A stretch of DNA of 64,000 nt from an uncultured Candidatus Saccharibacteria bacterium (GCA_964520295.1 CAZFMQ010000001.1:7048-71047); one strand, 5' to 3'. Positions 16,958 through 50,188 are shown, counted from the stretch's first letter. Numbers and translations: made by a program. The notes: a model not told the origin generated them from the sequence alone.

Positions 16958-18229
16958 ATGGGAAATTTTTTCAATAAACTGAAAATTGTTGTCGGCGATC
17001 GACAGTTGCGTTCGCGCATGTTGTTTGTGCTCGGCATTCTCGGTTTGTCCCGCGTCTTCGCTGCTATTCCAATTCCTGGTATTGATACCGTAGCGCTTGC
17101 GCAATTTTTCTCAAACAATCAATTCTTCGGATTCCTCAACCTCTTTTCGGGTGGTGGTCTTTCAGGTCTTTCTATTGTGATGCTCGGTGTGGCTCCGTAC
17201 ATTACGGCGTCCATCATCATGCAGTTGTTCACCGTGCTTTCCCCTCGCTTGAAAGCAATGTTCCACGAAGAAGGGCAGGCAGGCCGTCGCCGTGTATCAC
17301 AGTACTCCCGCTTACTTTCTGTACCACTTGCAGCACTGTCAGCATTTGGTTTTATCATGTTGCTCCAGCGCAACGGTATTCTTGCACCACTCTCATCGCT
17401 TGATTTGATTACCAACATCATTGTGGTCATTGGTGGTGCTGTATTGATGATGTGGCTCGGTGAACTGATTTCTGAATTCGGCATCGGCAACGGCGTCTCA
17501 CTCCTCATTTTTGCAGGTATTATTTCAAGTTTTCCAACTGCACTGCAACAGCTGGCGTTCACCTTTACCCCTGAGCAAATTCCTGCATACATCGGCTTCC
17601 TCGTAGCAGCCGTCATTACGGTGTTGGGTGTGGTGGTGGTGACAGAAGCAGAGCGTCCTATTCCGGTTACGTACGCAAAGCAGGTGCGCGGTAACCGCGT
17701 ATACGGCGGTGTATCCACATACTTGCCGTTGCGTATCAATCAGGCGGGTGTGATGCCAATTATTTTTGCGCTCTCAATCTTGTTGTTCCCGGGCATGATT
17801 GCAAACTTTCTTTCAGGGGTTGCGAATCCACTCGTGCAGAAGATTGTGCTCCTCATTAATGGTTTTCTGAATAATTTGCTCTGGTACGGTATTGCATACT
17901 TCGTACTTGTGTTCTTGTTCACGTACTTCTATACGACTGTTACGTTTGATCCAGACGCATTGTCAAAGAACTTGCAGCGTTCAGGTGCATTCATTCCTGG
18001 TGTTCGTCCTGGTGCATCAACCTCAACGCACATTGCAAACATTCTGACGCGCCTCACGTTGCTCGGCGCTCTCTTCCTCGGTCTCATTGCAATTTTGCCG
18101 CTTATTATGCAGTCAATTACAGGTATTACCTCCATTGCCATCGGTGGTACCGGTTTGCTCATTGCGGTGTCAGTGGTAGTTGATCTTGTTAAGAAAATTG
18201 AAGCACAGGTATCGCTTCGCGAATACTAA
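16958..18229 (+). CDS. secY: Preprotein translocase subunit SecY
   Basis: 10 TM helices; GIDT…FSGGGLSGLSI…GVAPYITASIIMQL; operon position. Confidence 0.95.
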   Translation: MGNFFNKLKIVVGDRQLRSRMLFVLGILGLSRVFAAIPIPGIDTVALAQFFSNNQFFGFLNLFSGGGLSGLSIVMLGVAPYITASIIMQLFTVLSPRLKAMFHEEGQAGRRRVSQYSRLLSVPLAALSAFGFIMLLQRNGILAPLSSLDLITNIIVVIGGAVLMMWLGELISEFGIGNGVSLLIFAGIISSFPTALQQLAFTFTPEQIPAYIGFLVAAVITVLGVVVVTEAERPIPVTYAKQVRGNRVYGGVSTYLPLRINQAGVMPIIFALSILLFPGMIANFLSGVANPLVQKIVLLINGFLNNLLWYGIAYFVLVFLFTYFYTTVTFDPDALSKNLQRSGAFIPGVRPGASTSTHIANILTRLTLLGALFLGLIAILPLIMQSITGITSIAIGGTGLLIAVSVVVDLVKKIEAQVSLREY

Positions 18230-18309
18230 AATTAAAATCGGCAAAAGACACAACGAGAGACCGAAACGCCCAGTGGTGTTTCGGTCTCTTTTGTTGTTAT
18301 ACTTGAGCC

Positions 18310-18876
18310 ATGCAATACAACACCATTGTCATTTTAGGTAAGCCGGGTTCTGGGAAGGGCACACAGGCGGCCCTGTTGTCGGAGAAGGCGGGTTTCCCTG
18401 TGTTTGCGGCATCAGCGCGTCTCAAAGAGTTGGCGCAATCGCATCCTGACATTGGTCAAGAGATTTTGGAGAGCATGCACCAAGGCGTGCTCGTGCCTCA
18501 TTGGATTATGTCGTACTTGTGGATTTCAGAGATGGTGGCACTCGGGCACCACGGCGGTATTATTTTTGATGGCGCGGTGCGCAAGCTTGAGGAAGCAAAA
18601 TTATTTCATGAAGTGATGACGTGGTTGAAGCGTTCATACACGGTTGTGTATCTGAATATTTCAAATGAAGAATTGTACGATCGTCTTTCTAAGCGTGCAG
18701 GGATTGAAGGACGTGCTGACGACACTGAAGAAGTTATCAAAAAACGTTTGATTGAGTACGATGAAAATACGCAAGATTCACTCACGTTCTTTAAAGAGCA
18801 AGGAACGTTGAAAGAAATAGACGGGGAAGGAAGTGTTGAGGAGATTCATGAGCGCATTATGCAGGTCCTGATATAG
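18310..18876 (+). CDS. adk: Adenylate kinase
   Basis: ILGKPGSGKGTQA P-loop; follows secY. Confidence 0.85.
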   Translation: MQYNTIVILGKPGSGKGTQAALLSEKAGFPVFAASARLKELAQSHPDIGQEILESMHQGVLVPHWIMSYLWISEMVALGHHGGIIFDGAVRKLEEAKLFHEVMTWLKRSYTVVYLNISNEELYDRLSKRAGIEGRADDTEEVIKKRLIEYDENTQDSLTFFKEQGTLKEIDGEGSVEEIHERIMQVLI

Positions 18877-18877
18877 T

Positions 18878-19645
18878 ATGAATTTTATCAAAGCACCAGA
18901 AGATATCGGGCATATTCGCGAAGCAGGAAAGCGCCTCGCGCGCATTCTTCGTGTGGTTGGCGAACACGCCACGGCGGGTACGACAACGCAGGCACTCAAT
19001 GACATGTGTGAGCATCTCATCCGTGAAGGTGGTGATACACCCGCATTTCTCAATTACAAACCCGATGGCGCATCCCGTCCATTTCCCGCAACGCTGTGCG
19101 TGTCTATAAATGATGAGGCGGTGCATGGTATCCCATCTCCGACACGTGTATTGCGTGATGGTGATATGGTGAGTTTAGATGCGGGGCTTATACACAACGG
19201 ATGCATTGCAGATATGTGCATCACCGTTCCTGTTGGTGTCGTTGATGCACAAGCACAGCATCTGATTGCTGTTACAAAAGATGCGCTATTCAAAGGTATT
19301 GCCGTTGCACGCGGTGGTGCACATACGGGCGACATTGGGCGTGCCATTGAACCATTCGTATTGGATGCGGGATTTGAAGTGGTGGCTGATTTGGGTGGAC
19401 ATGGGGTTGGCTACGCAGTACATGAGGTGCCACATATTTTTCACATTGCCTTAAAAGGAAAAGGTGATGTATTGGAGCCGGGTATGGTTATTACTATTGA
19501 GCCAACAGTTGCCGAAGGTGCAGGAGAGGTAGAGATTGCAGAAGATCAATGGACGTACCGTACCATAGATGGTTCACGCACTGCTCAATGGGAGCATACT
19601 ATCCTCATTACCGATGGCGACCCAGAGATTTTGACGCTAGAATAG
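18878..19645 (+). CDS. map: Methionine aminopeptidase, type I
   Basis: Pita-bread fold; metal-ligand context D…D…H…E…E (for example SLDAGLIHNG, HGVGYAVHE, ITIEP). Confidence 0.85.
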   Translation: MNFIKAPEDIGHIREAGKRLARILRVVGEHATAGTTTQALNDMCEHLIREGGDTPAFLNYKPDGASRPFPATLCVSINDEAVHGIPSPTRVLRDGDMVSLDAGLIHNGCIADMCITVPVGVVDAQAQHLIAVTKDALFKGIAVARGGAHTGDIGRAIEPFVLDAGFEVVADLGGHGVGYAVHEVPHIFHIALKGKGDVLEPGMVITIEPTVAEGAGEVEIAEDQWTYRTIDGSRTAQWEHTILITDGDPEILTLE

Positions 19646-19649
19646 TAGT

Positions 19650-22262
19650 ATGAAATCAATAGAAGGAGCTCCAGTACCAACAGGGCCAGAGGTACCAGCG
19701 GAGCGAGTTACCAAAAAACCGCGCGCATCTAGAAAAAAACAAGCAGAGCCCAAAGCCCCCACGGTTGAGGAGGTGTTTACACCAGAGCAACGAGAAGCGG
19801 GTATACAAGCGGCAAAAGAAGCACAAACGCCGCGCGTCACAAAGAAATTTATTGAAGATAGGCGTATCAAACTTGAAGAAGATACGTGGCTTACAAAACA
19901 AAAGAAAAAGGAGATTGAAGATTTGATTGATGAGTTAGAAGAAATTCACATCGGACTCAAAGAAAAAAAGTATTCTGTTAAAGAGATAGGAGAGAGACGG
20001 GATCGACAGGCGCATCTAGTACGGCAATTACGCGTTGGATCTGAAATGGGTATTACAGAAGATGAGATAGAAGAGGTGCGCGCCATTGGTATGCGTGATG
20101 CAGAAGTGCGCCGTGCAAAAGCTGCAAAAGCAAAAAAGCGAAACGCAAAACCAAAACGAGAAAAAACTGCAAAGGAGCGTGTTACAAAAGGCGAAGTAGC
20201 GGCAGCCTACGCAAAAATACAAGAAGCGCAGGATGCAAAAAAAGAAATACCAACTGCATACGAGGCGGCTCTGAAACGATTGGCAGAAGTAGATGTGCAA
20301 GAATCATTGGCATCGGTCGCTGTTGCGGAAGGTATTGCACTAGATGAAAACCACGATGGTTTGACGGAGAAGCTATCCACTGAAGAGGGGGTATTTTCTG
20401 AATCAGATGTGTTTGAAAAAATGACCGACGAAGAGCAGGTGGAGGCAGCCCTTGAAACTGTGCCCGCAAAAGAACGACCAACATGGTTGCGCAAACTTGC
20501 AGGTGCAGGATTTGCTTTGCAAGAAGCAAAAAATGCATTTGGAGAAAAGGCATTCGGATTTGCCTATGAGAAGTTTTTTAAAAAAACACTACAGGATAAA
20601 GCAGAGGGGGAAGATGTTGGTGATACGCGTTTCAATTCAGCATTGTTGATGCGCTCGTTGGCCAATCACTATGCAAGCGCAAAAGAGCAATCACGCCAAA
20701 ATCGAGAAGATTTCTACGCGGGCAAAAGCAAAAAGAGTGCCTGGGCACAACTTGCAGGGGAAGGTATTCGTGCAACGCGTGCAGTGTTTGCGCCGTTCAA
20801 TATGCTCCGCTCCCCAGTGTGGGCATTGATGGCAATGGGTCGCATATCAGAAACCGCATCGGATGTACGTCTTGAAAAGAAAAAATGGGGTACCACGGAG
20901 GATGAGGCAGCGGAGGAGGCGTGGTACTTGTACCAACGGGCAGAAAAGAGTGCACGAGAACAGAATCGTGCAATGCCGACTGCCGATGATATTCGACGTG
21001 AATATGTGACGAGGGTTGCCGAGGGCACGTTCGAAGCATATGAGGGCACCATTGCCACCTCAAGTGCTGGTATGGCTATCAAAAAGTTGATTGAACCGAT
21101 GTATGTACAATTGCAAGAGATACAAGCCAATACCACGTTGACTTCAGAAGAAAGGGAGACGCAATTGAATGCGTTGGCACAGAAACATGAAAAAATGATG
21201 CATGAAATCGACGCGCTTGTTGATCAAACGGGAAAAGTAGATGCAGTTGCATACTACTTGAAACGCTCGGGTGTATGGACAAAGCGTGTTGCAACCGTAC
21301 TTGCGATTGAAACACTTGCTGAAGCGGGGTGGCGCATTGCTCAATTGGACACTGCATTTCACATAAGCCCAGATACGCTGGCAGAGGCGCACGAGTACGG
21401 AGCGGCGGTGAATCATGCACCAGAGTATGCACCGGATGTTGCGGGAGCATTATCGGCTGAAGAGGCACAAAAGATAGTGACATCGGTGGAAGGGGTATCA
21501 GAAGCACCGGAGGTACCCGCATCTGTGGAGGTAGAAAAAGCAGCACCAGTTATCATTGAGAAAGGAGGTAATATTTGGAGTGCGGCAAAAGAAGTATTTG
21601 GGGACACGGGGTTGCCCAAAGAACAGTTTGCTGAAGCATGGAGTAACTCAACGGTAGCACTTGCTGATGGTCGTGAGATTCCGCTTGCCGAACTCCATTT
21701 GGTACATGAGGGCGATACTCTTTCATATGTGGCAGGGGAGAATGGTGCCGTGGGACATTTTGAATTCAATAATGAATCACACATTGCGTATGGTGATGCA
21801 CTCAATTTACCGGGGGCACATGAAGCCACACCGACATTTGACGAAACAGTTGATGTGGAACCGCGAGCAGTCGGCGTGCCTGAAGAGGCGCTTGAAACAA
21901 TAGACACACCTCGTGAGGTGCGAGTCGAGATGAGTGATATGTATGATGCGGCATCGGAAGCATCAACAGAGTCATATACTGAACCGCTCGCACGTGAAAT
22001 GCACGAAAAATTGCAAAACTTTTTTGGGGACTATACCAATGAGCGTGCGTCATCGTGGCATCAATGGAAGGATATGGGTGCGCGTAAGTTTATGCGCCTT
22101 GCACTCGGAGATGATACGCTCGATGCATCGTTTCAAAAACATCTTGAATACTTGCAAGAACAAACAGGATCACGCCCACGTGGTGGTTTTTGGCAAAAAA
22201 ACGAGACTGTGGAAGCATACCTAGAGCGTGCCACTGCCGAACTACTCAAACGCAAAGAATAA
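19650..22262 (+). CDS. Large (870 aa) highly charged K/E/A-rich, predicted coiled-coil protein of unknown function
   Basis: Low-complexity KKQAEPK…, AKAAKAKKRNAKPKREKTAKER. Possible LysM-like bit HLVHEGDTLSYVAG near the C-terminus. No TM helix. Occupies the position normally held by infA-rpmJ-rpsM-rpsK-rpsD-rpoA-rplQ. Confidence 0.5.
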   Translation: MKSIEGAPVPTGPEVPAERVTKKPRASRKKQAEPKAPTVEEVFTPEQREAGIQAAKEAQTPRVTKKFIEDRRIKLEEDTWLTKQKKKEIEDLIDELEEIHIGLKEKKYSVKEIGERRDRQAHLVRQLRVGSEMGITEDEIEEVRAIGMRDAEVRRAKAAKAKKRNAKPKREKTAKERVTKGEVAAAYAKIQEAQDAKKEIPTAYEAALKRLAEVDVQESLASVAVAEGIALDENHDGLTEKLSTEEGVFSESDVFEKMTDEEQVEAALETVPAKERPTWLRKLAGAGFALQEAKNAFGEKAFGFAYEKFFKKTLQDKAEGEDVGDTRFNSALLMRSLANHYASAKEQSRQNREDFYAGKSKKSAWAQLAGEGIRATRAVFAPFNMLRSPVWALMAMGRISETASDVRLEKKKWGTTEDEAAEEAWYLYQRAEKSAREQNRAMPTADDIRREYVTRVAEGTFEAYEGTIATSSAGMAIKKLIEPMYVQLQEIQANTTLTSEERETQLNALAQKHEKMMHEIDALVDQTGKVDAVAYYLKRSGVWTKRVATVLAIETLAEAGWRIAQLDTAFHISPDTLAEAHEYGAAVNHAPEYAPDVAGALSAEEAQKIVTSVEGVSEAPEVPASVEVEKAAPVIIEKGGNIWSAAKEVFGDTGLPKEQFAEAWSNSTVALADGREIPLAELHLVHEGDTLSYVAGENGAVGHFEFNNESHIAYGDALNLPGAHEATPTFDETVDVEPRAVGVPEEALETIDTPREVRVEMSDMYDAASEASTESYTEPLAREMHEKLQNFFGDYTNERASSWHQWKDMGARKFMRLALGDDTLDASFQKHLEYLQEQTGSRPRGGFWQKNETVEAYLERATAELLKRKE

Positions 22263-22284
22263 CAGATGCGCTATACTGTAGAGT

Positions 22285-25044
22285 ATGGAACGATTTTCAG
22301 TGACAGCGGAGACACAATTTTCTTCTGCTGAACAAGAAGCAGCGTTTTTGCGTGAGCGCCTCAAGCGCTTGGAAGAGGGTATTGATAGTGGCGCAGACAC
22401 ATTACGCCACGAGCGCCCCGAAGAACAGTTGACGCGTGCATACGCTTCTGTACAACCAGAGAAGGTACTGGCGAAAGGGCATCAGATGTTGAAGCCAGAA
22501 ATTGATGCCGTCGTGCTTGATTTGGCTCCCGAAGAGCACGATACCGTTATGAGTGAATTACTTACGCTTGTGCGTGAAAAGGGTATTCGCAATGCACTGT
22601 CAGTTGTTGAAAAATTACACGATGCGCATATAGAAGACGATTTTCATCGGTTTTTAGCAGAATATCTCAAGACGGGATACCCCGTTTCTGGTATCAAGGA
22701 GGGGGATGTGCTCTGGAAGGCATTGCATATGACACTATTGGAGGTAACGTTGCCGTTTTCCGCACAGGAAGCACGCGAGCACCAGCGCCCACTGAAAGAA
22801 TTGCTCTCATCTATGGAGCAATTTTATGCAGGCGCACTGTCTACAACAGCAGAAAAAAATGCAAAGAAAAATTATTTCACGATTGAGTTAGCAGTAGAAT
22901 CACATCAAGAGCACATCGCACTCTTTCTCTCGGTGCCAGTTGAGAAGGTGCCACTCTTTGAGCGTCAGTTACTTTCTATTTTCCCGCAGGCACGTATTGA
23001 GGTTGCAAAAAATGATTACAACGTCTTTGTGCCCGAAGGGCAGGTGGCGGGTTCTACGGTGTCGTACAGTCGTCCATCCGCGTATTCGCTTAAAACACAC
23101 GAATCCTTTGACTACGACCCGCTCAATATCTTGCTCTCGTCATTTGCAAAGTTGCTCAAAACAGGGGAGGGAGCAGCATTTCAAGTACTGATTCGCCCTG
23201 CGCAAACCGATTACACAGGACGATTTAGAAAGTCGTTGGAAAAACTATCAAAGGGTATTTCAGTGAAAGAGGCGTTTGCGCAAGAATCACTCATGTCTTC
23301 TATTGGTAAGGAGCTCAACGGGTTGTTCTTCTCATCGGGGAAAAAAGAGGACACAGAAAAAGAAAAGGAGCGCGTGATAGATGATATCGCCATAGAGCAA
23401 GTTAAGCAGAAGGTGGCGCATCCAATTGTGGAGACAAACATACGTCTCGTGGCATCAGCAACCACTATGACACGGGCCGAAGCAATACTTTCAGACATGG
23501 AAGCGAGCCTCAATCAGTTTGAAGACCCGCGCGGGAATGCACTGGTGTGCACGCGCATCAAAAAGAATGCATTCAAAGTATTCATTAAAAACTTCTCTTT
23601 CCGTCTTTTTTCTGAGAGCAATGTGTTGCCGATGAATTTGCGCGAAGTTGCATCAATCATTCACCTGCCGACCGCAGGAAGCGATGGCTCGCGAGAATTG
23701 AAACGTTCAAAGTCAGGCGGCGCACCAGCGCCTATGGATTTGCCAACAGAAGGAATCCTTCTCGGTCATAACACATACGGCAATAAGCGCACACCAATAC
23801 ACATGGCAGATGTTGATCGTGTGCGCCACCTGTACGTCATTGGTCAGACTGGTACAGGTAAAACAACCATTTTGAAAAATATGATTGTACAAGATATCAA
23901 AAATGGGGAAGGGGTTTGTATGATTGATCCGCACGGCACTGACATTCAAGACATTCTTGCGCAGATTCCGAAAGAACGTTGGGATGATGTTATTTACTTT
24001 GATCCTGCACACACAGAGCGTCCGATGGGGTTGAATATGTTGGAGTACGATACGCGATACCCCGAGCAAAAGACATTTGTGGTCAACGAGCTCTTTTCTA
24101 TTTTCCAAAAATTATATGAGGCAGATACCATGGGGCCAATGTTTGAGCAGTACTTCCGTAACGCCACGCTCTTGGTTATTGAAGATCCCAACAGTGGTAA
24201 TACACTCGCAGATGTGTCGCGTGTCTTAAGTGATCCTGCATTTCGTGAATTGAAGCTTGCGCGCTGTAAAAACCCTATTGTGGTGCAGTTTTGGCGCGAT
24301 GTTGCCGAAAAAGCAGGTGGCGAATCATCGTTGGTCAACATGGTGCCGTACATCACCAGCAAGTTTGACGTCTTTTTGGCGAATGATTTTATGCGTCCGA
24401 TTATTACTCAGCGCACATCGGCGTTTAATTTCCGCCAGATTATGGATGAGCGCAAAATCTTACTCGTCAATCTCTCCAAGGGGCGTTTGGGTGATATCAA
24501 TGCCAACCTCATCGGCCTTATTATTGTCGGCAAGATTCTCATGGCGGCACTGTCACGCGTGGACGTACTTGGGCGTGGGGAAGTACATCCGTTCTATCTC
24601 TACATTGATGAGTTCCAAAACGTAACGACTGATTCTATCTCAACCATTCTTTCAGAGGCGCGTAAGTACAAACTAGGATTGATTGTGGCGCATCAGTTTA
24701 TTAAGCAATTACCAGATAAAATTCGTGATGCGATATTCGGTAACGTCGGTTCTTTGTGTGCGTTCCGTGTTGGTTCTGAGGACGCAGAGTTTTTGGAAAA
24801 ACAATTCACACCTGTATTTTCAGCAACTGATTTGATGAACATAGATAACTTCAATGCAGTTATTAAAATGCTAGCGAATAATAAGCCCGTGCGTCCGTTC
24901 AACTTGCAAATTGAAAAACCAGCAGAAGGCAACATTGATGTAACCGACCGCCTCAAAGAACTTTCCTATGTTCGGTATGGTCGCCCACGCGCTGAAATTG
25001 AGGCGCAGGTAAGTACAACCCATACGGGTTTTGGCAATTCTTGA
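22285..25044 (+). CDS. FtsK/HerA-superfamily P-loop ATPase with a TraG/TraD/VirD4-type C-terminal domain (type IV coupling-protein-like). It has no N-terminal TM anchor.
   Basis: Walker A HLYVIGQTGTGKTT; Walker B FYLYIDEFQN; KLGLIVAHQF…GNVGSLCAFRVGSEDAEFL matches the TraG-D_C pattern. The N-terminal ~480 aa are unique. Confidence 0.6.
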   Translation: MERFSVTAETQFSSAEQEAAFLRERLKRLEEGIDSGADTLRHERPEEQLTRAYASVQPEKVLAKGHQMLKPEIDAVVLDLAPEEHDTVMSELLTLVREKGIRNALSVVEKLHDAHIEDDFHRFLAEYLKTGYPVSGIKEGDVLWKALHMTLLEVTLPFSAQEAREHQRPLKELLSSMEQFYAGALSTTAEKNAKKNYFTIELAVESHQEHIALFLSVPVEKVPLFERQLLSIFPQARIEVAKNDYNVFVPEGQVAGSTVSYSRPSAYSLKTHESFDYDPLNILLSSFAKLLKTGEGAAFQVLIRPAQTDYTGRFRKSLEKLSKGISVKEAFAQESLMSSIGKELNGLFFSSGKKEDTEKEKERVIDDIAIEQVKQKVAHPIVETNIRLVASATTMTRAEAILSDMEASLNQFEDPRGNALVCTRIKKNAFKVFIKNFSFRLFSESNVLPMNLREVASIIHLPTAGSDGSRELKRSKSGGAPAPMDLPTEGILLGHNTYGNKRTPIHMADVDRVRHLYVIGQTGTGKTTILKNMIVQDIKNGEGVCMIDPHGTDIQDILAQIPKERWDDVIYFDPAHTERPMGLNMLEYDTRYPEQKTFVVNELFSIFQKLYEADTMGPMFEQYFRNATLLVIEDPNSGNTLADVSRVLSDPAFRELKLARCKNPIVVQFWRDVAEKAGGESSLVNMVPYITSKFDVFLANDFMRPIITQRTSAFNFRQIMDERKILLVNLSKGRLGDINANLIGLIIVGKILMAALSRVDVLGRGEVHPFYLYIDEFQNVTTDSISTILSEARKYKLGLIVAHQFIKQLPDKIRDAIFGNVGSLCAFRVGSEDAEFLEKQFTPVFSATDLMNIDNFNAVIKMLANNKPVRPFNLQIEKPAEGNIDVTDRLKELSYVRYGRPRAEIEAQVSTTHTGFGNS

Positions 25045-25096: not shown

Positions 25097-25681
25097 ATGA
25101 AAAATCCGAAGGAAGAGAAGACATTCGTGATGGTAAAGCCCGATGGCGTTCGTAAGGGTCTCGTGGGGGAAATCATTCACCGTTTTGAGCAGCGCGATCT
25201 TAAAATCGTTGCGTTGCAGATGTTTCAGCCAACGCTCAAACAGATGGATAAGCATTATCCAAAAGATAAGATGTGGATTACCCGTGTGGGTGAGAAGACG
25301 GCTGGTACGTATGAAAAGTATGGCTACTCGTTAAAAAAAGATTTTGGTACTGAAGATAAGTACAAAATAGGTAAAATCGTGCGCGGATGGCTCATCAATT
25401 ATATGGTGTCAGCGCCATTGGTGCGCATGGTTGTGCAAGGTGTGCATGCGGTAGATATGGTACGTAAAATTGTAGGTCCGACCATTCCATATGCGGCAGA
25501 CATGGGTACGATTCGTGGTGATTATTCAGCCGATTCGCCAGTGCTTGCGAATGCGGAGAAGCGTGCCATCATGAACCTGGTACACGCGTCAGAAACGCCA
25601 GCTGAAGCAGCTCATGAAATCAAACACTGGTTTGGTAAAGATCCGGTCTTCTCATACAAACGCTTTGGTGTAGATCAATAA
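25097..25681 (+). CDS. ndk: Nucleoside diphosphate kinase with a ~35-aa internal insertion
   Basis: EKTFVMVKPDGVRKGLVGEIIHRFE; GTIRGDY; NLVHASE with the catalytic His. Extra segment KMWITRVGEKTAGTYEKYGYSLKKDFGTEDKYKIG. Confidence 0.8.
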   Translation: MKNPKEEKTFVMVKPDGVRKGLVGEIIHRFEQRDLKIVALQMFQPTLKQMDKHYPKDKMWITRVGEKTAGTYEKYGYSLKKDFGTEDKYKIGKIVRGWLINYMVSAPLVRMVVQGVHAVDMVRKIVGPTIPYAADMGTIRGDYSADSPVLANAEKRAIMNLVHASETPAEAAHEIKHWFGKDPVFSYKRFGVDQ

Positions 25682-25684
25682 TAA

Positions 25685-25745
25685 TTGGTTTTTGAGGTGA
25701 AAATACCGCCCAAAATACACTATGTATTTTGGGCGGTATTCACTT
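25685..25745 (+). terminator. Terminator hairpin after ndk
   Basis: AATACCGCCCAAAATACACTATGTATTTTGGGCGGTATT. Confidence 0.45.
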
Positions 25746-26036
25746 TCCATTTTCTTTGTGTCGTAAACTGCTATCCACCCTTGCATCAACAGTAGTGGAA
25801 GGGGTATCGTATATGTGGGGTTGTTTTGGATATTATCTAGATCAAATAATTTTTTCAGGGACTTCGAATTGTTTCAAACCGACCGCCTTGGCGGACGTAC
25901 TGAGAAGACCCACCTAGCTTCTGCTAGGTAAAAATCTGAAATGACCCCAACAATGAGCTCCGAACTGCTGTTCGGAGCTCATTGTTTTCGTATGATATAC
26001 TTGAGATGTTACTGAGGCATATAATCAGAGTATTCC

Positions 26037-37891: not shown

Positions 37892-38311
37892 ATGGCAAAA
37901 AAAGTTCTAAAAACCCTCAAATTGCAGATCCCCGGTGGTGCGGCAACTCCTGCGCCTCCATTGGGTGCAACGCTTGGTCAAGCGGGTGTTAACATTGGTG
38001 ATTTCGTTAATAAATTCAACACCGCCACTGCAGAGATGCGTGGAGAAACAGTGTCGGTATTGCTCACTGTATTTGAAGATCGAAGCTACGACTTCGTACT
38101 CAAAAGCCCACCAGCAACATCACTCTTGCTCAAAGCAGCAGGTATTCAGAAAGGTTCTGGCAATCCGCTCAAGATTGTGGGCAAGGTAACCAAAGCGCAA
38201 GTAAAAGAAATTGCAGAGCGCAAGTTGGTAGACCTCAACGCACACGATGTTGATGCCGCAATGAAAATCATTGAAGGTTCAGCTCGTAGTATGGGGATTG
38301 AAGTGCGTTAA
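37892..38311 (+). CDS. rplK: 50S ribosomal protein L11 (no rplA/rplJ/rplL follow)
   Basis: [26 protein letters not shown]…. Confidence 0.9.
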
Positions 38312-38480
38312 TCGCACTTCAATCCGCCGGAGGCCGACTGGGCCGAGGCAGGCCTGCGCAACTTTTCAGCAGAAAAGTATGTGCAGGTTGAGTGCGTTAA
38401 TCGCACTTCAATCCGCCGGAGGCCGACTGGGCCGAGGCAGGCCTGCACAACTTTTCAGCAGAAAAGTATGTGCAGGTTGA
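38303..38480 (+). repeat. Tandem duplication, 2 x 89 bp with 1 mismatch, beginning with the last 9 nt of rplK
   Basis: Unit GTGCGTTAATCGCACTTCAATCCGCCGGAGGCCGACTGGGCCGAGGCAGGCCTGC(G/A)CAACTTTTCAGCAGAAAAGTATGTGCAGGTTGA. Contains the hairpin CTTTTCAGCAGAAAAG. Confidence 0.85.
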
Positions 38481-38513
38481 GGTGAAATAAATTTCTAATC
38501 TGGAATTAAAAAA

Positions 38514-38556
38514 CACCCCCGCCATTCCGAAACTTCGGAATGGCGGGGGTGTTTGT
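38514..38556 (+). terminator. Rho-independent terminator
   Basis: CACCCCCGCCATTCCGAAACTTCGGAATGGCGGGGGTGTTTGTT. Confidence 0.5.
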
Positions 38557-38603
38557 TATGTGCTAGTGTAGCGCCAGATTATAACCCGACGAAAGGAGAC
38601 ACA

Positions 38604-39182
38604 ATGAATATCAGGCAGGAAACACGCATTTTTGAGCCACCGTTTGTGGCACAAAAGTACGTGCAGAGCATGGAAGATCTTGCGAGTATTCGCAAGGGCT
38701 ACGAGTTGCTGGGCAAGAAGGTTGTTCTCACACAAGGTGTGTGGGACCTCCTGCACCGTGGCCATCTGCGGTACCTGTACGCCGCCGCACAAATGGGCGA
38801 CGTACTCATTGTCGGTGTTGACTCTGATGCTTTGACGCGTAAGCGCAAGGGAGAAGGGCGACCGGCAGTGCCACAGGACGAGCGTATTGAAATGCTGGCA
38901 TTTGAGCATTTCATCAACCACATCGTTCTGCGGGATGTACAGCAGGACATCGGCACGCTCATCAAGACGGTGCGTCCCGATGTCCTGATTGTCTCGGAAA
39001 CGACCAAGGACTTCCCGAAAGAGGATGTTGAGGTCTACACCGAGTGCTGTGGACAGATTGTGCGGCTGGCGGAACAGGCGCGGACGAGTAGCACGGAGCG
39101 TCTGCGTCAGCAGGTAATTCAGGGGAAGCTGGAAGTGGTGAACCTTCTGGAAAATCTCATCAAGAAGGTGAGGGGTTCATGA
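38604..39182 (+). CDS. Cytidylyltransferase-like nucleotidyltransferase (HxGH family; TagD/RfaE-domain-II-like)
   Basis: VVLTQGVWDLLHRGHLRYL…VGVDSD; SD AAAGGAGACACA ahead of the ATG; 4-nt ATGA overlap with the next gene. Confidence 0.55.
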   Translation: MNIRQETRIFEPPFVAQKYVQSMEDLASIRKGYELLGKKVVLTQGVWDLLHRGHLRYLYAAAQMGDVLIVGVDSDALTRKRKGEGRPAVPQDERIEMLAFEHFINHIVLRDVQQDIGTLIKTVRPDVLIVSETTKDFPKEDVEVYTECCGQIVRLAEQARTSSTERLRQQVIQGKLEVVNLLENLIKKVRGS

Positions 39183-40009
39183 CACTTCCCATCGTCGCCT
39201 ACGTTCCCGTAATCCATCAGGGGTATCTGGAACTGTTCGCACAGTATCCGGAGTATCTCTATGTGCTAAACGAGGATGTACTCTCGCTGGTGCCGTATCT
39301 GTCGCGCGATGTGCGTGCGTGTAGACCCGAAAGTATTGTCGCGCAAGCACGCGGACTCGGTTTTTTCCGAGAGGTGCGTGTTGTGGGCAGGCAGTACCTC
39401 AAGTCGCTGAAAAAATCGGGCATGCACGTGGTGATGCCCGATGAAGACATTTCGCGCGAAGTGGCAAAGCGCTTCTCGCTTGAGGCACAGGTGCAGTTTG
39501 CAAGTGTGTTTCTGCGATACGACAGTACCGTGGTTGCAAAAGCATCTGTACCTAATCCGCATCACACGATCACGCAGGAACGCGCGCACGCCGATTTTAT
39601 GAAGCGTGCGCGCGCAGAGACGAAGCGGAGTCCTGACTGGTGGCGGCAAGTCGGTGCGGTTGCAGTGTGCAAGGACAGAACTGTGCTGTCTGCGCACAAC
39701 GAGCACTTTCCGGCACAGCAAACAGCGTACATCATGGGTGATCCGCGTACGCCGTTTGCTCCCGGAGAACGCACCGATATCTCTCTTGCAGGACACGCAG
39801 AACGAATGCTTATTGGTTCTGCGGCTCGACGAGGGATTTCGTTGCATGGTGCTGACCTGTACGTTACTACCTTTCCGTGCCCGGCATGTGCGATTCAAAT
39901 CGCCGCCACCGGATTCTCTCGGGTGTTCTACGAGGAGGGTTACTCGCTTGCGCAAGGAGATGAAATTCTCCGAGAGCACGGAGTAACGCTGACTCGGGTT
40001 GTTCTTTAG
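39179..40009 (+). CDS. Fusion protein: unknown N-terminal domain (~130 aa) plus a C-terminal dCMP/CMP deaminase zinc-binding domain
   Basis: GHAERMLI…LYVTTFPCPACAIQIA (H-A-E…P-C-x-x-C). Confidence 0.65.
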   Translation: MTLPIVAYVPVIHQGYLELFAQYPEYLYVLNEDVLSLVPYLSRDVRACRPESIVAQARGLGFFREVRVVGRQYLKSLKKSGMHVVMPDEDISREVAKRFSLEAQVQFASVFLRYDSTVVAKASVPNPHHTITQERAHADFMKRARAETKRSPDWWRQVGAVAVCKDRTVLSAHNEHFPAQQTAYIMGDPRTPFAPGERTDISLAGHAERMLIGSAARRGISLHGADLYVTTFPCPACAIQIAATGFSRVFYEEGYSLAQGDEILREHGVTLTRVVL

Positions 40010-40065
40010 AAAAAGCCCCCAACCGTGCGAACGGTTGGGGGCGTATTTTTTACAGAGACATACTG

Positions 40066-40536
40066 CTAGTCGTTGCCGATGGCTTTGCCACCGTACGAGC
40101 CAAGCCACAAGCTAATGCGCTTGGCCTGACCAGCGGCATGGTGGGGCGGCACGATGAGGTGCCCATGCAGATGCTGCACGGTGGATCCAGAGTATCCGGA
40201 TTCACCGAAGCGCATCAACAGTCCGCCACCGGGGATGTTGTATTCCGTGCATGCCCAGTGCATCAGCACACCAAATCCCGTCCACTCGTCGTCCACGAGT
40301 TCGGCGGGGGAAATGATGTGTCGCTTGGCGATGCAGAGCAAGTGCAACTGGCTCTGCTGGTATGGCCACTGGTTCTCGGTGAGCACCCAGTGGTCGTTTT
40401 CATACAGCACCGGTCGCGCATGGAACCGCAAAAGATGTTCGGGACAGAATGGACAGACCTTGTCTGCCACAATGTCCTCCATCACCTTGCGTTGTTCGTC
40501 CTCCCGCGCGTGTTCCAGGTTCACGTACTTGGTCAT
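40066..40536 (-). CDS. HIT-superfamily (histidine triad) protein with an N-terminal CxxC…H motif
   Basis: VQHLHGHLIV (HxHxHxx); CPFCPEH; SD GAGGAGGGG. Confidence 0.6.
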   Translation of the reverse strand: MTKYVNLEHAREDEQRKVMEDIVADKVCPFCPEHLLRFHARPVLYENDHWVLTENQWPYQQSQLHLLCIAKRHIISPAELVDDEWTGFGVLMHWACTEYNIPGGGLLMRFGESGYSGSTVQHLHGHLIVPPHHAAGQAKRISLWLGSYGGKAIGND

Positions 40537-40546
40537 GAACCCCTCC

Positions 40547-41485
40547 TCATACTGGTGTCGGGATTGTCATCGCAGGATGCGGATGATACTCCGAGAGTGA
40601 GAAGTGATACGGCGTGAACGCAAACAGATCCGTCACGCTCGTGTCCAACGACATGGTGGGGAATGGGCGCGGTGCGCGGTTGAGCAGTTCCTGTACGAAT
40701 GGAATCTGTTCCTCGTAGATGTGCACGTCAGACAACATGCACACCAACTCACGCATCCGATAACCGACGGTGTGCGCCACCATCATGCCGAAGGCCATGT
40801 ATTGCACGATATTGAACACGAGCCCGACGGGCGCATCAGCACTCCGCTGGTAGTGCACGATATCCAGTTCTTCCGTTTCCGGATAGGCGTGGATGTGGAT
40901 GTCGCCATGGCACGGTGCCACGACAACCTTCCGTTCGTTCGTCGGACCGGGAACCGCATACTGCGGCGCCCAGTTGCTGATGCGTAGGGTGCGCAGGTGC
41001 GGAGCGCGCTTGAGCAACTCCACCACATTGCGCACCTGGTTGACTGATGGTCCTTCGGCGGTGGGGAAATTCGTCCACACCGAGCCGTACGAACCGGGGC
41101 CGAGATCACCTTCGGGAAGTCCGAACACGTCGCACTTCTCCTTGGTAACCCAGCGCTTCCACCACGGGCACCCCCACGCCTTGAGTTCTTCGTGCGTGTG
41201 GGCGCCATGCAGGAAGCCGATGTGTTCGGCGAGCGCACCATGCAACAGGTTGCCGCCGAGATCGCGTTCGGTCATGAGTGGGAATCCGTTTGAGAGCGGA
41301 TACCGCAACACTTCACCGACCAGCTTCAGCGCGGACTTTCCCTGAATGGGATAGACCGTCTGCCCGCTGGACAAAATACTGTCCAACAGGTCGTGGTACT
41401 GCCAATCTGCCTTTCTTTCCATGATATGTCTCCTGTAAAGGTACGGTTCTGGTGGCACTATACGTGTGTGACGTGCGTGCGTCAA
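40547..41485 (-). CDS. Diverged thymidylate synthase (ThyA)-family enzyme
   Basis: EGDLGPGSYGSVW (ThyA has GDLGPVYG.QW); VVAPCHGD (PPCH, catalytic Cys); VHYQRSADAPVGLVFNIVQY (YQRS.D…PFNI.SY); SDVHIY (GD.HIY); RAPRPFPT (REPRP.P); YHPHP. The dUMP-binding DRTGTGT block is replaced by PIQGKSALKL. Confidence 0.75.
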   Translation of the reverse strand: MTHARHTRIVPPEPYLYRRHIMERKADWQYHDLLDSILSSGQTVYPIQGKSALKLVGEVLRYPLSNGFPLMTERDLGGNLLHGALAEHIGFLHGAHTHEELKAWGCPWWKRWVTKEKCDVFGLPEGDLGPGSYGSVWTNFPTAEGPSVNQVRNVVELLKRAPHLRTLRISNWAPQYAVPGPTNERKVVVAPCHGDIHIHAYPETEELDIVHYQRSADAPVGLVFNIVQYMAFGMMVAHTVGYRMRELVCMLSDVHIYEEQIPFVQELLNRAPRPFPTMSLDTSVTDLFAFTPYHFSLSEYHPHPAMTIPTPV

Positions 41486-41523
41486 TCAATGCGCTCTGGG
41501 CATTTTTTGTGTAGGATGGGGAT

Positions 41524-43209: not shown

Positions 43210-43255
43210 TATCCACACAGAAAGCGCCCGCGTATGCTGTATACTGCTGATATCT

Positions 43256-43675
43256 ATGGAGATGGACGCAACACCACGCAGAATGACAGAGGCGCCTTCA
43301 CGACGCGGGCGCGGCATCAAAAAAGTATTCTTTTTCCTCGTATTATGCGCACTTCTTGTCGCAGGTATCTGGTACTGGCTTTCATTGCCCGCAACTGGTT
43401 CATCTGAAGCAACTGCACGTCAAACAGAAAGTGCAGTAGAGCGTGTGTCTAAGGTGATGGTGTTACCACAGGACGAACAACCTGCAATCGGCACAATTAT
43501 TGATCCGTATAAATTCCAAGGAGGGGTATTTTTTGACGTAGTACAAATGGGGGATCTTGTGCTCATGTATCCCGAGCGCGGTATGCTCATTGTGTACAGT
43601 GCCGCACATAAAAAAATTGTAGGTGTTGCACCATTTGTCATGAATACACCGCCAGGCATCTCGGTTACCGAGTAA
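43256..43675 (+). CDS. Hypothetical membrane-anchored protein
   Basis: TM VFFFLVLCALLVAGIWYWL; short extracytoplasmic domain; ends 3 nt before the next gene. Confidence 0.35.
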   Translation: MEMDATPRRMTEAPSRRGRGIKKVFFFLVLCALLVAGIWYWLSLPATGSSEATARQTESAVERVSKVMVLPQDEQPAIGTIIDPYKFQGGVFFDVVQMGDLVLMYPERGMLIVYSAAHKKIVGVAPFVMNTPPGISVTE

Positions 43676-43677
43676 TC

Positions 43678-44916: not shown

Positions 44917-44922
44917 TACGAT

Positions 44923-48183: not shown

Positions 48184-48331
48184 TAACGCTACATAGCACG
48201 AGCAGTATTGTTGCCCTCTCATTATCCACAGCAGTACAACACGAGAAAACGGCATTTGCTATACTTTGCGTATGTCCAGTCCATGCTGATAGCGCGCTGG
48301 CCGTACTCTTATTCTGTTTCATAATCACCCC

Positions 48332-49216: not shown

Positions 49217-49241
49217 CATTACCTAAATATTTGCGACTGTC

Positions 49242-50186: not shown

Positions 50187-50188
50187 GT

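What the first reader, a model, noticed from the sequence alone, without database searches (positions are those of the whole stretch)
19650..25044. An 870-aa charged coiled-coil protein plus a soluble TraG/VirD4-like coupling ATPase replace infA-rpmJ-rpsM-rpsK-rpsD-rpoA-rplQ downstream of map
The alpha-operon genes expected after map are absent. In their place sit two co-oriented genes 22 nt apart. The ATPase has FtsK/HerA-type Walker A/B motifs and a TraG-D_C-like C-terminus but no TM helices. Its partner is an unannotatable K/E-rich giant protein.

This could be a DNA or protein translocation module (conjugation-like or competence-like) of a kind repeatedly noted in CPR but functionally uncharacterised.
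Basis: partly seen in the sequence, partly recalled or inferred. Interest (0 to 1): 0.55.

Follow-up and report, generated by a model that had tools for sequence, protein, structure and literature searches.

The report
Conserved chromosomal conjugation-type ATPase, orphan neighbour
A motor protein of the kind that normally feeds DNA into bacterial conjugation machines sits just after the ribosomal gene cluster, as a conserved gene with no DNA-nicking partner (relaxase) nearby, in a whole class of ultra-small (CPR) bacteria; its 870-residue neighbour is a fast-evolving orphan found only in close relatives.

Summary
Both ORFs are real and lie where stated. Window 22285-25044 encodes a 919-aa soluble P-loop ATPase of the VirD4/TraD/TrwB coupling-protein (T4CP) lineage. 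It has three parts:
- a helical N-terminal extension;
- an alpha/beta domain (Pfam DUF8128) whose predicted fold matches only the N-terminal domain of VirB4;
- a T4CP-type ATPase domain with intact catalytic motifs.

It is not a local insertion. In 39 of 65 informative loci from other Paceibacteria species it lies between map and ndk. It is as conserved as map (about 50% identity). No alpha-operon gene, relaxase or VirB4 lies within 10 kb in any locus.

Outside CPR, its full-length relatives hold the coupling-protein slot of Bacillus and actinomycete plasmid T4SS operons, and also occur in SPO1-like phages. In all three loci examined, a Replic_Relax protein follows immediately. CPR lacks that partner.

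The 870-aa neighbour is an orphan with six known members, always map-X-ATPase-ndk. Only its N-terminal third is K/E-rich, and heptad signal is sparse.

A 2025 paper already reports thousands of orphan T4CP homologues in Patescibacteria, so this is a variant of a known kind. Function is inferred, not shown.

The parts
18255..18290 (+). 16-bp G+C-rich hairpin followed by a T-run, between secY and adk. It is the probable upstream boundary of the transcription unit that holds the two genes.
   Evidence: Terminator-like scan. The boundary role is an inference.
18310..18876 (+). adk (adenylate kinase), first gene of the putative adk-map-X-ATPase-ndk unit.
   Evidence: Pfam ADK E 3.8e-25.
18878..19645 (+). 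map (methionine aminopeptidase). It ends 4 nt before the 870-aa ORF.
   Evidence: Pfam Peptidase_M24 E 6e-43; sequence.
19650..22262 (+). 870-aa orphan protein with no Pfam, NCBIfam, PADLOC, PHROG or PDB match. It has six family members, always located between map and the ATPase.
19650..20444 (+). Orphan protein aa 1-265: a poorly conserved, about 41% charged (K/R/D/E) N-terminal third, with one heptad-like segment at about aa 83-120.
   Evidence: Composition and heptad scan; alignment A2.
20445..21449 (+). Orphan protein aa 266-600: the best-conserved core (PTWLRK.AGAGF ... FYAGKSKK ... MLRSPVW). It has weakly hydrophobic stretches but no predicted transmembrane helix.
   Evidence: Alignment A2 invariant columns; hydropathy scan.
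21537..21824 (+). Orphan protein aa 630-725: a second conserved block (GGNIWS.AK ... LVHEGDTLSYV ... GHFEFNNESH.AYGD). It looks LysM-like by eye only.
   Evidence: no LysM hit at E up to 1.
21957..22259 (+). Orphan protein aa 770-870: a conserved C-terminal block ending in ETV.(E)Y..R.
   Evidence: An HMM of this block finds no other protein in the 85 loci.
22285..25044 (+). 919-aa soluble ATPase of the T4CP lineage (DUF8128 plus a VirD4/TraD-type nucleotide-binding domain). It is a core gene of Paceibacteria.
22285..22689 (+). ATPase aa 1-135: an all-helical N-terminal extension with invariant H85, D86, H115, D119 and R122. It is missing from the roughly 800-aa subfamily and from plasmid and phage relatives.
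22690..23679 (+). ATPase aa 136-465: the alpha/beta core of DUF8128. Its predicted fold matches only the N-terminal domain of TrwK/VirB4.
   Evidence: NTD-only model at pLDDT 77. The 12 Foldseek PDB hits with E<1e-3 are all TrwK/VirB4, best E 5e-6, TM 0.35-0.39. hhalign to SPO1 gp27.4 gives 94% probability.
23755..25041 (+). ATPase aa 491-919: a RecA-like nucleotide-binding domain of T4CP type.
   Evidence: Foldseek to TrwB gives TM(target) 0.61-0.64, and to the VirB4 C-terminal domain 4ag5 gives 0.65. The only PDB profile hit is TrwB.
23842..23865 (+). Walker A motif GQTGTGKT (aa 520-527).
   Evidence: Invariant in 33 homologues; aligned to the TrwB P-loop.
24064..24447 (+). aa 594-721: an all-alpha insertion of nine helices between Walker A and Walker B, at the topological position of the T4CP all-alpha domain.
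   Evidence: Secondary structure of the model. Homology to the TrwB all-alpha domain is not shown.
24592..24618 (+). Walker B motif FYLYIDEFQ (aa 770-778), followed by SEARKYKL and AHQ, which align to TrwB GRKAGL and GLQ.
25099..25681 (+). ndk. The likely true start is ATG 25099 (MKNPKEEKTFVMVKPDG).
   Evidence: Pfam NDK; sequence; the L001 orthologue is 194 aa.
25702..25740 (+). Perfect 18-bp hairpin 20 nt after ndk, followed by a T-rich tract. It is the probable downstream boundary of the unit.
   Evidence: The boundary role is an inference.

Best explanation
The 919-aa protein is the vertically inherited, class-wide Paceibacteria member of the type IV coupling protein (VirD4/TraD/TrwB) lineage.

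It derives from a subfamily that has no obligatory membrane anchor. That subfamily carries a VirB4-N-terminal-domain-like alpha/beta domain in front of the ATPase. In Bacillus and actinomycete plasmids it sits in the coupling-protein slot next to a Replic_Relax relaxase. In CPR the relaxase partner is absent, a helical N-terminal extension has been added, and the gene has settled into a probable adk-map-(X)-ATPase-ndk unit just after the spc ribosomal operon.

Its catalytic motifs are intact and it evolves as slowly as map. It is therefore most likely an active, oligomeric NTP-driven motor.

Inferred role: it serves as the relaxase-independent substrate-recruiting or energising ATPase of the chromosomal patescibacterial T4SS. 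That T4SS is encoded elsewhere, near dnaA according to the literature. The ATPase would dock through its VirB4-like domain rather than through its own membrane helices.

The 870-aa protein is a clade-restricted, fast-evolving accessory gained between map and the ATPase. It is probably a lineage-specific adaptor, anchor or substrate, and is not a defining part of the system.

Shown: homology, domain architecture, synteny and conservation. Inferred: oligomer formation, translocation, the link to the T4SS, the role of the 870-aa protein and the operon boundaries.
For: Sequence:
- Pfam TraG-D_C, TrwB_AAD_bind and DUF87 score above their cut-offs.
- The best NCBIfam hits are TraD and VirD4-like models.
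- The only PDB sequence hit is TrwB.
- The precomputed Pfam domains of homologues are DUF8128 plus T4SS-DNA_transf.

Fold:
- The full-length model (pLDDT 76) matches TrwK/VirB4 over about 900 aligned columns (E 2e-14).
- It matches TrwB with TM 0.61-0.64.
- The N-terminal domain alone matches only the VirB4 N-terminal domain.

Conservation:
- 403 homologues were found, and the 120th is still 54% identical over the full length.
- The N-terminal-domain profile finds 2,517 representatives.
- Median identity to the window protein is 50%, against 49% for map and 61% for secY.

Synteny:
- map lies upstream in 39 of 65 informative loci, spread over nearly all major clades of the ATPase tree.

Origin:
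- Full-length relatives occur in 385 plasmid records and 55 phage records.
- In B. subtilis plasmid NZ_CP154917, an Embleya plasmid and phage SPO1, a Replic_Relax protein follows the homologue immediately.
- In both plasmids a separate VirB4/TcpF-type ATPase lies in the same operon.
- PHROG 5156 matches at E 2e-82, and phage G gp156 matches by fold at E 5e-39.

Literature:
- 5,713 VirD4-like T4CP homologues were found in 2,918 of 3,035 Patescibacteria genomes. Only 148 lie near virB4, and relaxases are rare (PMC12102498).
- The Southlakia T4SS cluster lacks recognisable coupling and relaxase proteins (PMC10633639).

No sign of a mobile element:
- GC content is flat across the region, there are no flanking repeats, and no tRNA is nearby.
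Against: - No T4SS gene lies within 10 kb in the window or in 85 loci, so the link to the T4SS rests on family membership only.
- The Saccharimonadia t4cp homologue was reported as not essential for epibiotic growth (PMC12102498).
- Homologues in lytic SPO1-like phages show that the family can work without a T4SS.
- The protein lacks the N-terminal membrane anchor of classical T4CPs.
- It scores far below the curated TraD/VirD4 equivalog cut-offs (51 bits against 366).
- The fold match of the N-terminal domain to VirB4 has a modest TM score (0.35-0.39) and rests on a predicted model.
- The role of the 870-aa protein is unsupported by any homology.
Confidence: 0.5

Rival explanations
1. The ATPase is an exapted housekeeping motor that works independently of any T4SS. 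One possibility is a DNA or RNA translocase used in chromosome handling. Another is nucleic-acid uptake and salvage, acting with the conserved neighbours ndk, adk, the beta-CASP nuclease and the SLOG protein.
For: - Its ancestral position lies in the secY-adk-map ... ndk-DUF2238-betaCASP-SLOG block.
- It is conserved to the same degree as map.
- It is not linked to virB4 (PMC12102498, whose authors state that exaptation cannot be ruled out).
- T4CP homologues are present in more genomes (2,918) than VirB4 (2,417).
- Relatives in lytic phages have no T4SS.
- It gives weak hits to the archaeal DNA-import ATPases CedD and CedB.
Against: - Gene order in reduced genomes can be conserved without any functional link.
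- No DNA-binding module such as an FtsK gamma domain was detected.
- The nearest characterised contexts are conjugation operons.
- ComEC-mediated transformation was reported as not essential for nucleotide acquisition in Southlakia (PMC12857230).
Confidence: 0.28
2. The two genes form a dedicated two-component translocation module. The 870-aa protein would be the obligatory partner of the ATPase: a membrane tether, a stator or a substrate.
For: - The genes are co-oriented with a 22-nt gap and no terminator between them.
- The pair is syntenic in all five other genomes that have the 870-aa protein.
- In another Paceibacteria clade the ATPase is followed by a different large, fast-evolving protein plus DUF5663.
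Against: - The partner family has only six members.
- It is absent in L003, whose ATPase is 67% identical, and in all 78 remaining comparison loci.
- No HMM or hhalign relation exists to the large neighbours found in other clades.
- The ATPase is equally conserved with or without it.
Confidence: 0.12
3. The region is a remnant of an integrated conjugative element or prophage that inserted after map and displaced the alpha operon.
For: The closest non-CPR relatives are plasmid and phage genes.
Against: - The gene holds the same position in deep-branching members of the class.
- GC content and skew are the same as in the flanks.
- There is no integrase, relaxase, flanking repeat or tRNA.
- Sequence conservation is at housekeeping level.
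- No locus has alpha-operon genes nearby, so nothing was displaced locally.
Confidence: 0.03
4. The ATPase is the FtsK/SpoIIIE or HerA orthologue of these genomes.
For: The P-loop region hits DUF87/HerA and, weakly, FtsK_SpoIIIE. HerA structures appear among the fold hits.
Against: - FtsK_SpoIIIE scores below its gathering cut-off, and NCBIfam FtsK gives E 0.08.
- There are no membrane helices and no gamma domain.
- The HerA matches cover only the ATPase core, and no NurA partner is present.
- The best sequence and profile hits are TraD, VirD4 and TrwB.
Confidence: 0.04

Closest known systems
Type IV coupling proteins (VirD4 / TraD / TrwB of R388)
   Same: - RecA-like nucleotide-binding domain with the same Walker A, Walker B, R-K and Q motifs.
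- A helical insertion between Walker A and Walker B.
- Pfam TraG-D_C and TrwB_AAD_bind score above their cut-offs.
- TrwB is the only PDB hit by sequence profile, and TM(target) is 0.61-0.64.
   Different: - No N-terminal membrane helices.
- About 490 extra N-terminal residues.
- No relaxase or T4SS genes nearby.
- Chromosomal, vertically inherited and conserved like a housekeeping gene.
- Far below the curated equivalog cut-offs.
Coupling-slot ATPases next to Replic_Relax relaxases in monoderm plasmid T4SS operons (B. subtilis NZ_CP154917, 885 aa; Embleya NZ_CP108778, 812 aa)
   Same: - Homology runs from about aa 195 to 900, covering both the DUF8128 core and the ATPase (25-28% identity, E down to 6e-52).
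- The Bacillus protein also has no membrane helix.
   Different: - These sit in operons with a VirB4/TcpF-type ATPase, PrgI-like and NlpC/P60 proteins, and are immediately followed by a Replic_Relax protein. The CPR gene has none of these neighbours.
- They lack the N-terminal 135-aa helical extension.
PHROG 5156: SPO1 gp27.4, phage G gp156 and relatives in Bacillus phages
   Same: Same full-length architecture. PHROG E 2e-82 over aa 173-909. BFVD fold match E 5e-39 with TM 0.46-0.50. hhalign of the N-terminal domain gives 94% probability.
   Different: These are phage-borne and function is unknown. They are followed by a Replic_Relax protein (gp27.3). Identity is about 23%.
VirB4 (TrwK of R388)
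   Same: Two-domain layout, with an alpha/beta N-terminal domain and a C-terminal ATPase. The N-terminal domain model hits only the VirB4 N-terminal domain in the PDB.
   Different: - No significant sequence match to VirB4 models (TIGR00929 gives 19.9 bits against a cut-off of 643).
- The patescibacterial VirB4 is a different gene, reported near dnaA (PMC12102498).
- TM scores are modest.
Orphan VirD4-like T4CP homologues of Patescibacteria (Quinonero-Coronel et al. 2025, PMC12102498)
   Same: This gene is very probably one of them. They are widespread, usually not near virB4, lack a relaxase and have no known function.
   Different: In the passages read, that paper does not describe the following, all seen here: the DUF8128/VirB4-like N-terminal domain, the lack of a membrane anchor, the map-ATPase-ndk synteny, or the link to plasmid and phage pairs of Replic_Relax protein and ATPase.

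Membership tests
Type IV coupling protein (VirD4/TraD/TrwB) | P-loop nucleotide-binding domain homologous to TrwB, with Walker A, Walker B and the downstream R-K and Q motifs | tested here: met
Type IV coupling protein (VirD4/TraD/TrwB) | All-alpha domain inserted in the nucleotide-binding domain | tested here: inconclusive
   The model has a nine-helix insertion at aa 594-721 in the right topological place. The Pfam TrwB_AAD_bind match covers only the P-loop region.
Type IV coupling protein (VirD4/TraD/TrwB) | N-terminal transmembrane anchor | tested here: not met
   The hydropathy scan finds no membrane helix in the first 700 residues. The only hydrophobic stretch lies inside the ATPase domain of the model. 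The Bacillus plasmid and SPO1 relatives also lack one.
Type IV coupling protein (VirD4/TraD/TrwB) | Encoded with a relaxase and/or T4SS channel genes | tested here: not met
   No Replic_Relax and no VirB4-like ORF lies within 10 kb in the window or in 85 loci. The whole genome could not be searched.
Type IV coupling protein (VirD4/TraD/TrwB) | Score above curated family cut-offs | tested here: inconclusive
   Pfam TraG-D_C (24.1 against 22) and TrwB_AAD_bind (22.4 against 20.5) pass. NCBIfam SXT_TraD (51 against 366) and the CD1115 VirD4-like model (37 against 250) fail.
Type IV coupling protein (VirD4/TraD/TrwB) | Hexamer that couples substrates to a T4SS | not testable with these tools
   This needs biochemistry or multimer modelling.
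VirB4 | N-terminal alpha/beta domain plus C-terminal ATPase domain | tested here: met
   At fold level only. Full-length and N-terminal-domain models hit TrwK/VirB4 first, with TM 0.3-0.39.
VirB4 | Sequence match to VirB4 family models | tested here: not met
   TIGR00929 gives 19.9 bits against a cut-off of 643, over aa 506-538 only.
VirB4 | Adjacent VirB3/VirB6/VirB8-like genes | tested here: not met
   Neighbours are map, ndk and lineage-specific ORFs.
FtsK/SpoIIIE | FtsK_SpoIIIE motor domain above cut-off, N-terminal membrane domain and C-terminal gamma domain | tested here: not met
   Pfam gives 18.3 bits against a cut-off of 24. NCBIfam FtsK gives E 0.08. No membrane helices.
HerA | HAS-barrel plus HerA ATPase, with a NurA partner | tested here: not met
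   DUF87 passes but covers only aa 509-551. The PADLOC and NCBIfam HerA hits are P-loop only. No NurA-like neighbour is present.
Pfam DUF8128 (PF26449) proteins | N-terminal DUF8128 domain | tested here: met
   A precomputed PF26449 hit exists for the window protein itself (P0001) and for all listed homologues. The local Pfam scan returned no hit to this model.
Plasmid/phage ATPase + Replic_Relax pair (PHROG 5156 type) | Full-length homology of the ATPase | tested here: met
Plasmid/phage ATPase + Replic_Relax pair (PHROG 5156 type) | Replic_Relax (PF13814) gene immediately downstream | tested here: not met
   Present in L089, L090 and L091. Absent from the window and from all 85 CPR loci.

The most novel reading that the evidence does not exclude
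The DUF8128 ATPase is the missing coupling motor of the essential patescibacterial T4SS. It has been rewired to need neither a relaxase nor a membrane anchor. The hypervariable large proteins without signal peptides that recur next to it are its secreted substrates or host-specific adaptors. These include the 870-aa protein here and the 600-1,200-aa proteins plus DUF5663 in another clade. The locus would then be a built-in cassette of motor plus effector that sets host range. Alternatively, the motor has left the T4SS altogether and drives nucleic-acid import for nucleotide salvage.
Probability: 0.18. Interest if true: 0.7.

Novelty: new variant of a known kind. Interest (0 to 1): 0.4.

Why it matters
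Patescibacteria depend on host cells. Their T4SS is one of the few machines shown to be essential for the epibiotic lifestyle, yet its cluster lacks a recognisable coupling protein and relaxase.

A near-universal, slowly evolving, relaxase-less T4CP-lineage ATPase sitting in the core gene block of a whole class is an obvious candidate for the missing motor. It could equally be a conjugation motor recruited to a housekeeping task.

The link found here to plasmid and phage pairs of ATPase and Replic_Relax protein gives the family a concrete evolutionary origin. It also offers tractable Bacillus and SPO1 homologues in which the biochemistry could be studied.

The 870-aa orphan matters less. It marks a variable slot next to the motor.

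Tried and rejected
1. I looked for a relation between the 870-aa protein and the large proteins next to the ATPase in other clades. By eye they share a charged N-terminus, a 'GDT.W'-type block and a C-terminal 'ET.E.YL.R' motif.
   - hhalign of A2 against A3 gave 1% probability.
   - A C-terminal HMM seeded with both groups recovered only its seeds.
   - Four region HMMs built from the six family members alone found nothing else among 1,629 ORFs, even at E up to 10.
   - I rejected the idea as unsupported.

2. LysM-like reading of aa 630-725: no Pfam LysM hit at E up to 1.

3. S4-like motif 'EKPTWL' in the orphan: the PDB hit to ribosomal S4 has E 0.079, and there is no Pfam S4 hit in any member. 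I treat it as chance.

4. A second homologue search of the orphan without its low-complexity N-terminus added only two members.

5. A Replic_Relax search in the CPR loci was negative.

6. A VirB4-like search in the CPR loci was negative.

7. Signs of a mobile element (GC shift, flanking repeats, tRNA) were all negative.

8. Defence-system reading: PADLOC mad8 hits at E 1.5e-16, but only as a generic ATPase-domain match, and no MADS neighbours are present. I did not pursue it.

Full report
**1. Observation**

The window carries a standard gene run: rpoB/C, rpsL-rpsG-fusA, then the S10 and spc ribosomal operons, ending in secY (16958-18229), adk (18310-18876) and map (18878-19645).
- Four nucleotides after map starts an 870-codon ORF (19650-22262).
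- Twenty-two nucleotides after that starts a 919-codon ORF (22285-25044).
- Downstream lie ndk (likely start 25099), a DUF2238 membrane protein, a beta-CASP metallo-beta-lactamase nuclease and a SLOG/LOG-like protein.

None of infA, rpmJ, rpsM, rpsK, rpsD or rplQ is detectable anywhere in the 64-kb window. I searched by tblastn with E. coli sequences recalled from memory. L14 and S8 queries of the same kind found their orthologues at about 50% identity, so the method works at this divergence. The factual part of the finding is therefore confirmed.

Two descriptors are overstated.
- The first protein is about 41% charged only in its N-terminal 265 residues.
- Heptad-like periodicity shows up only at about aa 83-120 and 503-534.

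**2. The ATPase**

*Sequence.* It belongs to the coupling-protein side of the FtsK-HerA superfamily.
- Pfam DUF87, TraG-D_C and TrwB_AAD_bind pass their gathering scores. FtsK_SpoIIIE does not.
- The best NCBIfam models are TraD and VirD4-like ones. All score far below the equivalog cut-offs.
- TrwB is the only PDB protein found by sequence, both with the single sequence and with a 33-member profile.
- Walker A (GQTGTGKT), Walker B (YLYIDEF) and the downstream R-K and H-Q motifs that align with TrwB are invariant in 33 homologues.
- There is no transmembrane helix.

*Structure.* An AlphaFold2 model (mean pLDDT 76) shows three parts:
- a helical extension (aa 1 to about 135);
- an alpha/beta domain (to about aa 465);
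- a RecA-like domain with a nine-helix insertion between the Walker motifs.

Foldseek against the PDB ranks full-length TrwK/VirB4 of R388 first (E 2e-14, about 900 aligned columns). HerA, TrwB (TM of target 0.61-0.64) and the VirB4 C-terminal domain (0.65) follow.

I also modelled the N-terminal 492 residues alone (pLDDT 77). All 12 PDB hits with E<1e-3 are the N-terminal domain of TrwK/VirB4 (best E 5e-6, TM 0.35-0.39). This region is what Pfam now calls DUF8128 (precomputed hits).

**3. Distribution and synteny**
- The 5.8-billion-cluster search returned 403 homologues. The 120th is still 54% identical over the full length, and all named ones are Paceibacteria/Parcubacteria.
- A profile of the N-terminal domain alone finds 2,517 representatives at 50% clustering. 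These include a roughly 800-aa subfamily (Wolfebacteria and others) that lacks the first 135 residues.
- A scan of one genome per species returned 80 loci.
- With ORF calling, clustering and tblastn, 39 of the 65 loci with enough upstream sequence have map within a few genes upstream. Most of these also have ndk-DUF2238-betaCASP-SLOG downstream.
- On a neighbour-joining tree of the ATPases, this context occurs in nearly all major clades, so it is ancestral.
- Median identity to the window protein in 24 loci that contain secY, adk, map, the ATPase and ndk is 50% for the ATPase, 49% for map, 61% for secY and 31% for adk.
- No alpha-operon protein, Replic_Relax protein or VirB4-like ATPase occurs within 10 kb of the gene in any locus.
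- GC content is flat, and there are no flanking repeats or tRNA genes nearby.

The gene is thus a vertically inherited core gene, not an insertion that displaced the alpha operon.

A 16-bp hairpin with a T-run after secY (18255-18290) and a perfect 18-bp hairpin after ndk (25702-25740) suggest a unit adk-map-X-ATPase-ndk. This is an inference.

**4. Relatives outside CPR**
- PHROG 5156 (function unknown) matches aa 173-909 at E 2e-82.
- tblastn finds the family in 55 phage records. These include SPO1 gp27.4, SP8 'VirD4 component-like' and phage G gp156, at about 23% identity over 75-81% of the query.
- It also finds the family in 385 plasmid records from Bacillus, Streptomyces/Embleya, Clostridium, haloarchaea and Sulfolobus.
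- The predicted structure matches phage G gp156 over 840 aligned columns (E 5e-39).
- hhalign of the N-terminal-domain profile gives 94% probability to SPO1 gp27.4, and E 1e-4 to the Embleya protein.

I examined three loci: B. subtilis plasmid NZ_CP154917, Embleya plasmid NZ_CP108778 and phage SPO1. In each, the gene immediately downstream encodes a Replic_Relax (PF13814) protein. In the two plasmids the pair lies inside a T4SS operon with a separate VirB4-type ATPase (TcpF at E 3e-251; CD1110-type at E 5e-79).

So the nearest characterisable context is the coupling-protein slot of monoderm conjugation systems. This fits the published conclusion that the patescibacterial T4SS derives from the monoderm MPF-FATA class (PMC12102498). 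The Bacillus and SPO1 proteins also lack membrane helices. The Embleya protein has one.

**5. The 870-aa protein**
- It has no hit in Pfam, NCBIfam, PADLOC, PHROGs or the PDB.
- Two database searches, the second without the low-complexity N-terminus, found six members in all, 42-46% identical to the window protein.
- In every genome that has it, the order is map-X-ATPase-ndk.
- A relative whose ATPase is 67% identical (CP064977, L003) has only a 257-nt spacer there.
- The N-terminal third is poorly conserved. The core (aa 266-600), a block at aa 630-725 and the C-terminal 100 residues are well conserved. It is therefore a real, constrained gene.

In another Paceibacteria clade the ATPase is followed by a different 600-1,200-aa fast-evolving protein and a DUF5663 protein. 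I could not show any homology between those proteins and the window protein. The 870-aa protein is thus a lineage-specific occupant of a variable slot beside the ATPase. It is not a defining partner.

**6. Mechanism**

Shown:
- T4CP-lineage homology.
- VirB4-like fold of the N-terminal domain (predicted).
- Intact catalytic motifs.
- No membrane anchor.
- No relaxase or T4SS gene nearby.
- Class-wide synteny.
- Housekeeping-level constraint.

Inferred, as the most likely reading (confidence about 0.5): the protein is an oligomeric NTP-driven motor. It acts as the relaxase-independent coupling or energising ATPase of the chromosomal patescibacterial T4SS, and it docks through its VirB4-like domain.

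The main rival (about 0.28) is full exaptation to a T4SS-independent task such as nucleic-acid handling or uptake. Four points favour it:
- the genomic context;
- the phage homologues;
- the published observation that T4CP homologues are more widespread than VirB4 and mostly unlinked to it;
- the report that one Saccharimonadia homologue is not essential.

The mobile-element, FtsK/HerA and obligatory two-gene-module readings are poorly supported.

**7. Comparison with what is known, and verdict**

Quinonero-Coronel et al. 2025 counted 5,713 VirD4-like homologues in 2,918 of 3,035 Patescibacteria genomes. Only 148 lie near virB4, and the authors raised the possibility of exaptation. Wang et al. 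2023 noted that the essential Southlakia T4SS cluster lacks recognisable coupling and relaxase proteins. The existence of such genes is therefore known, and Pfam already defines DUF8128.

As far as I could find, four things are not described elsewhere:
- the VirB4-like nature of the N-terminal domain;
- the ancestral map-ATPase-ndk position;
- the housekeeping-level conservation;
- the link to plasmid and phage pairs of ATPase and Replic_Relax protein.

I rate it a new variant of a known kind, of moderate interest (0.4).

Noticed in passing
window 51084-54545 (+): The isoleucyl-tRNA synthetase (1,153 aa) carries a histidine-phosphatase domain (His_Phos_1, E 7e-35) at aa 500-672, after the best tRNA-synt_1 match (aa 21-485; two stretches matched) and before a tRNA-synt_1g match at aa 766-859. 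This is an unusual domain insertion in an aminoacyl-tRNA synthetase.
   Followed up: no
window 25682-26036: The 355-nt spacer between ndk and the DUF2238 gene is very strongly structured (RNA folding z-score -8.9). It has two perfect hairpins at 25702-25740 and 25949-25986 and no Rfam match. In relative L001 the same spacer holds an 80-aa GIY-YIG ORF.
   Followed up: partly
window 43112-51112 (+): Six co-oriented ORFs have either no Pfam hit or only DUF7483/DUF7361 (the 1,086-aa protein). Each has one hydrophobic segment: at the very N-terminus (signal-like) in the last four, at about residues 72 and 30 of the called ORF in the first two, and one ORF also has a C-terminal one. This is probably a cluster of secreted or surface proteins.
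   Followed up: partly
window 38000-42000: G+C rises to 0.53-0.57, against about 0.47 elsewhere. The rise covers a cytidylyltransferase-like ORF and a dCMP/cytidine-deaminase-like ORF, with long overlapping antisense ORFs. This may be foreign DNA.
   Followed up: no
loci L023, L032, L037, L040-L043, L046: In Nomurabacteria-like genomes, one to three tandem copies of a roughly 580-aa cysteine-rich protein lie between adk and map, in most of them together with a roughly 228-aa kinase-like protein. This interrupts the otherwise tight adk-map pair.
   Followed up: no
loci L004, L035, L038, L050, L051, L061, L063, L064, L073: In one Paceibacteria clade the ATPase is followed by a 600-1,200-aa fast-evolving protein. 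In those read, the protein has a charged N-terminus and a Gly/Ala-rich hydrophobic hairpin. In five of these loci a roughly 105-aa DUF5663-type protein comes next. The large proteins are distantly related to each other but not detectably to the window's 870-aa protein.
   Followed up: partly
window 20445-20500 (orphan protein, about aa 266-283): The orphan family motif 'ALE.vP.KEkPTWL' resembles the conserved 'ALELAEQREKPTWL' of ribosomal protein S4, one of the alpha-operon proteins expected at this position. The hit is not significant (E 0.079), and no Pfam S4 domain is found.
   Followed up: yes
window 22285-22689 (ATPase aa 1-135): The CPR-specific helical extension has invariant His and Asp residues (H85, D86, H115, D119, plus R122). 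This suggests a metal- or ligand-binding site. It has no family match, and it is absent from the roughly 800-aa subfamily and from plasmid and phage relatives.
   Followed up: partly
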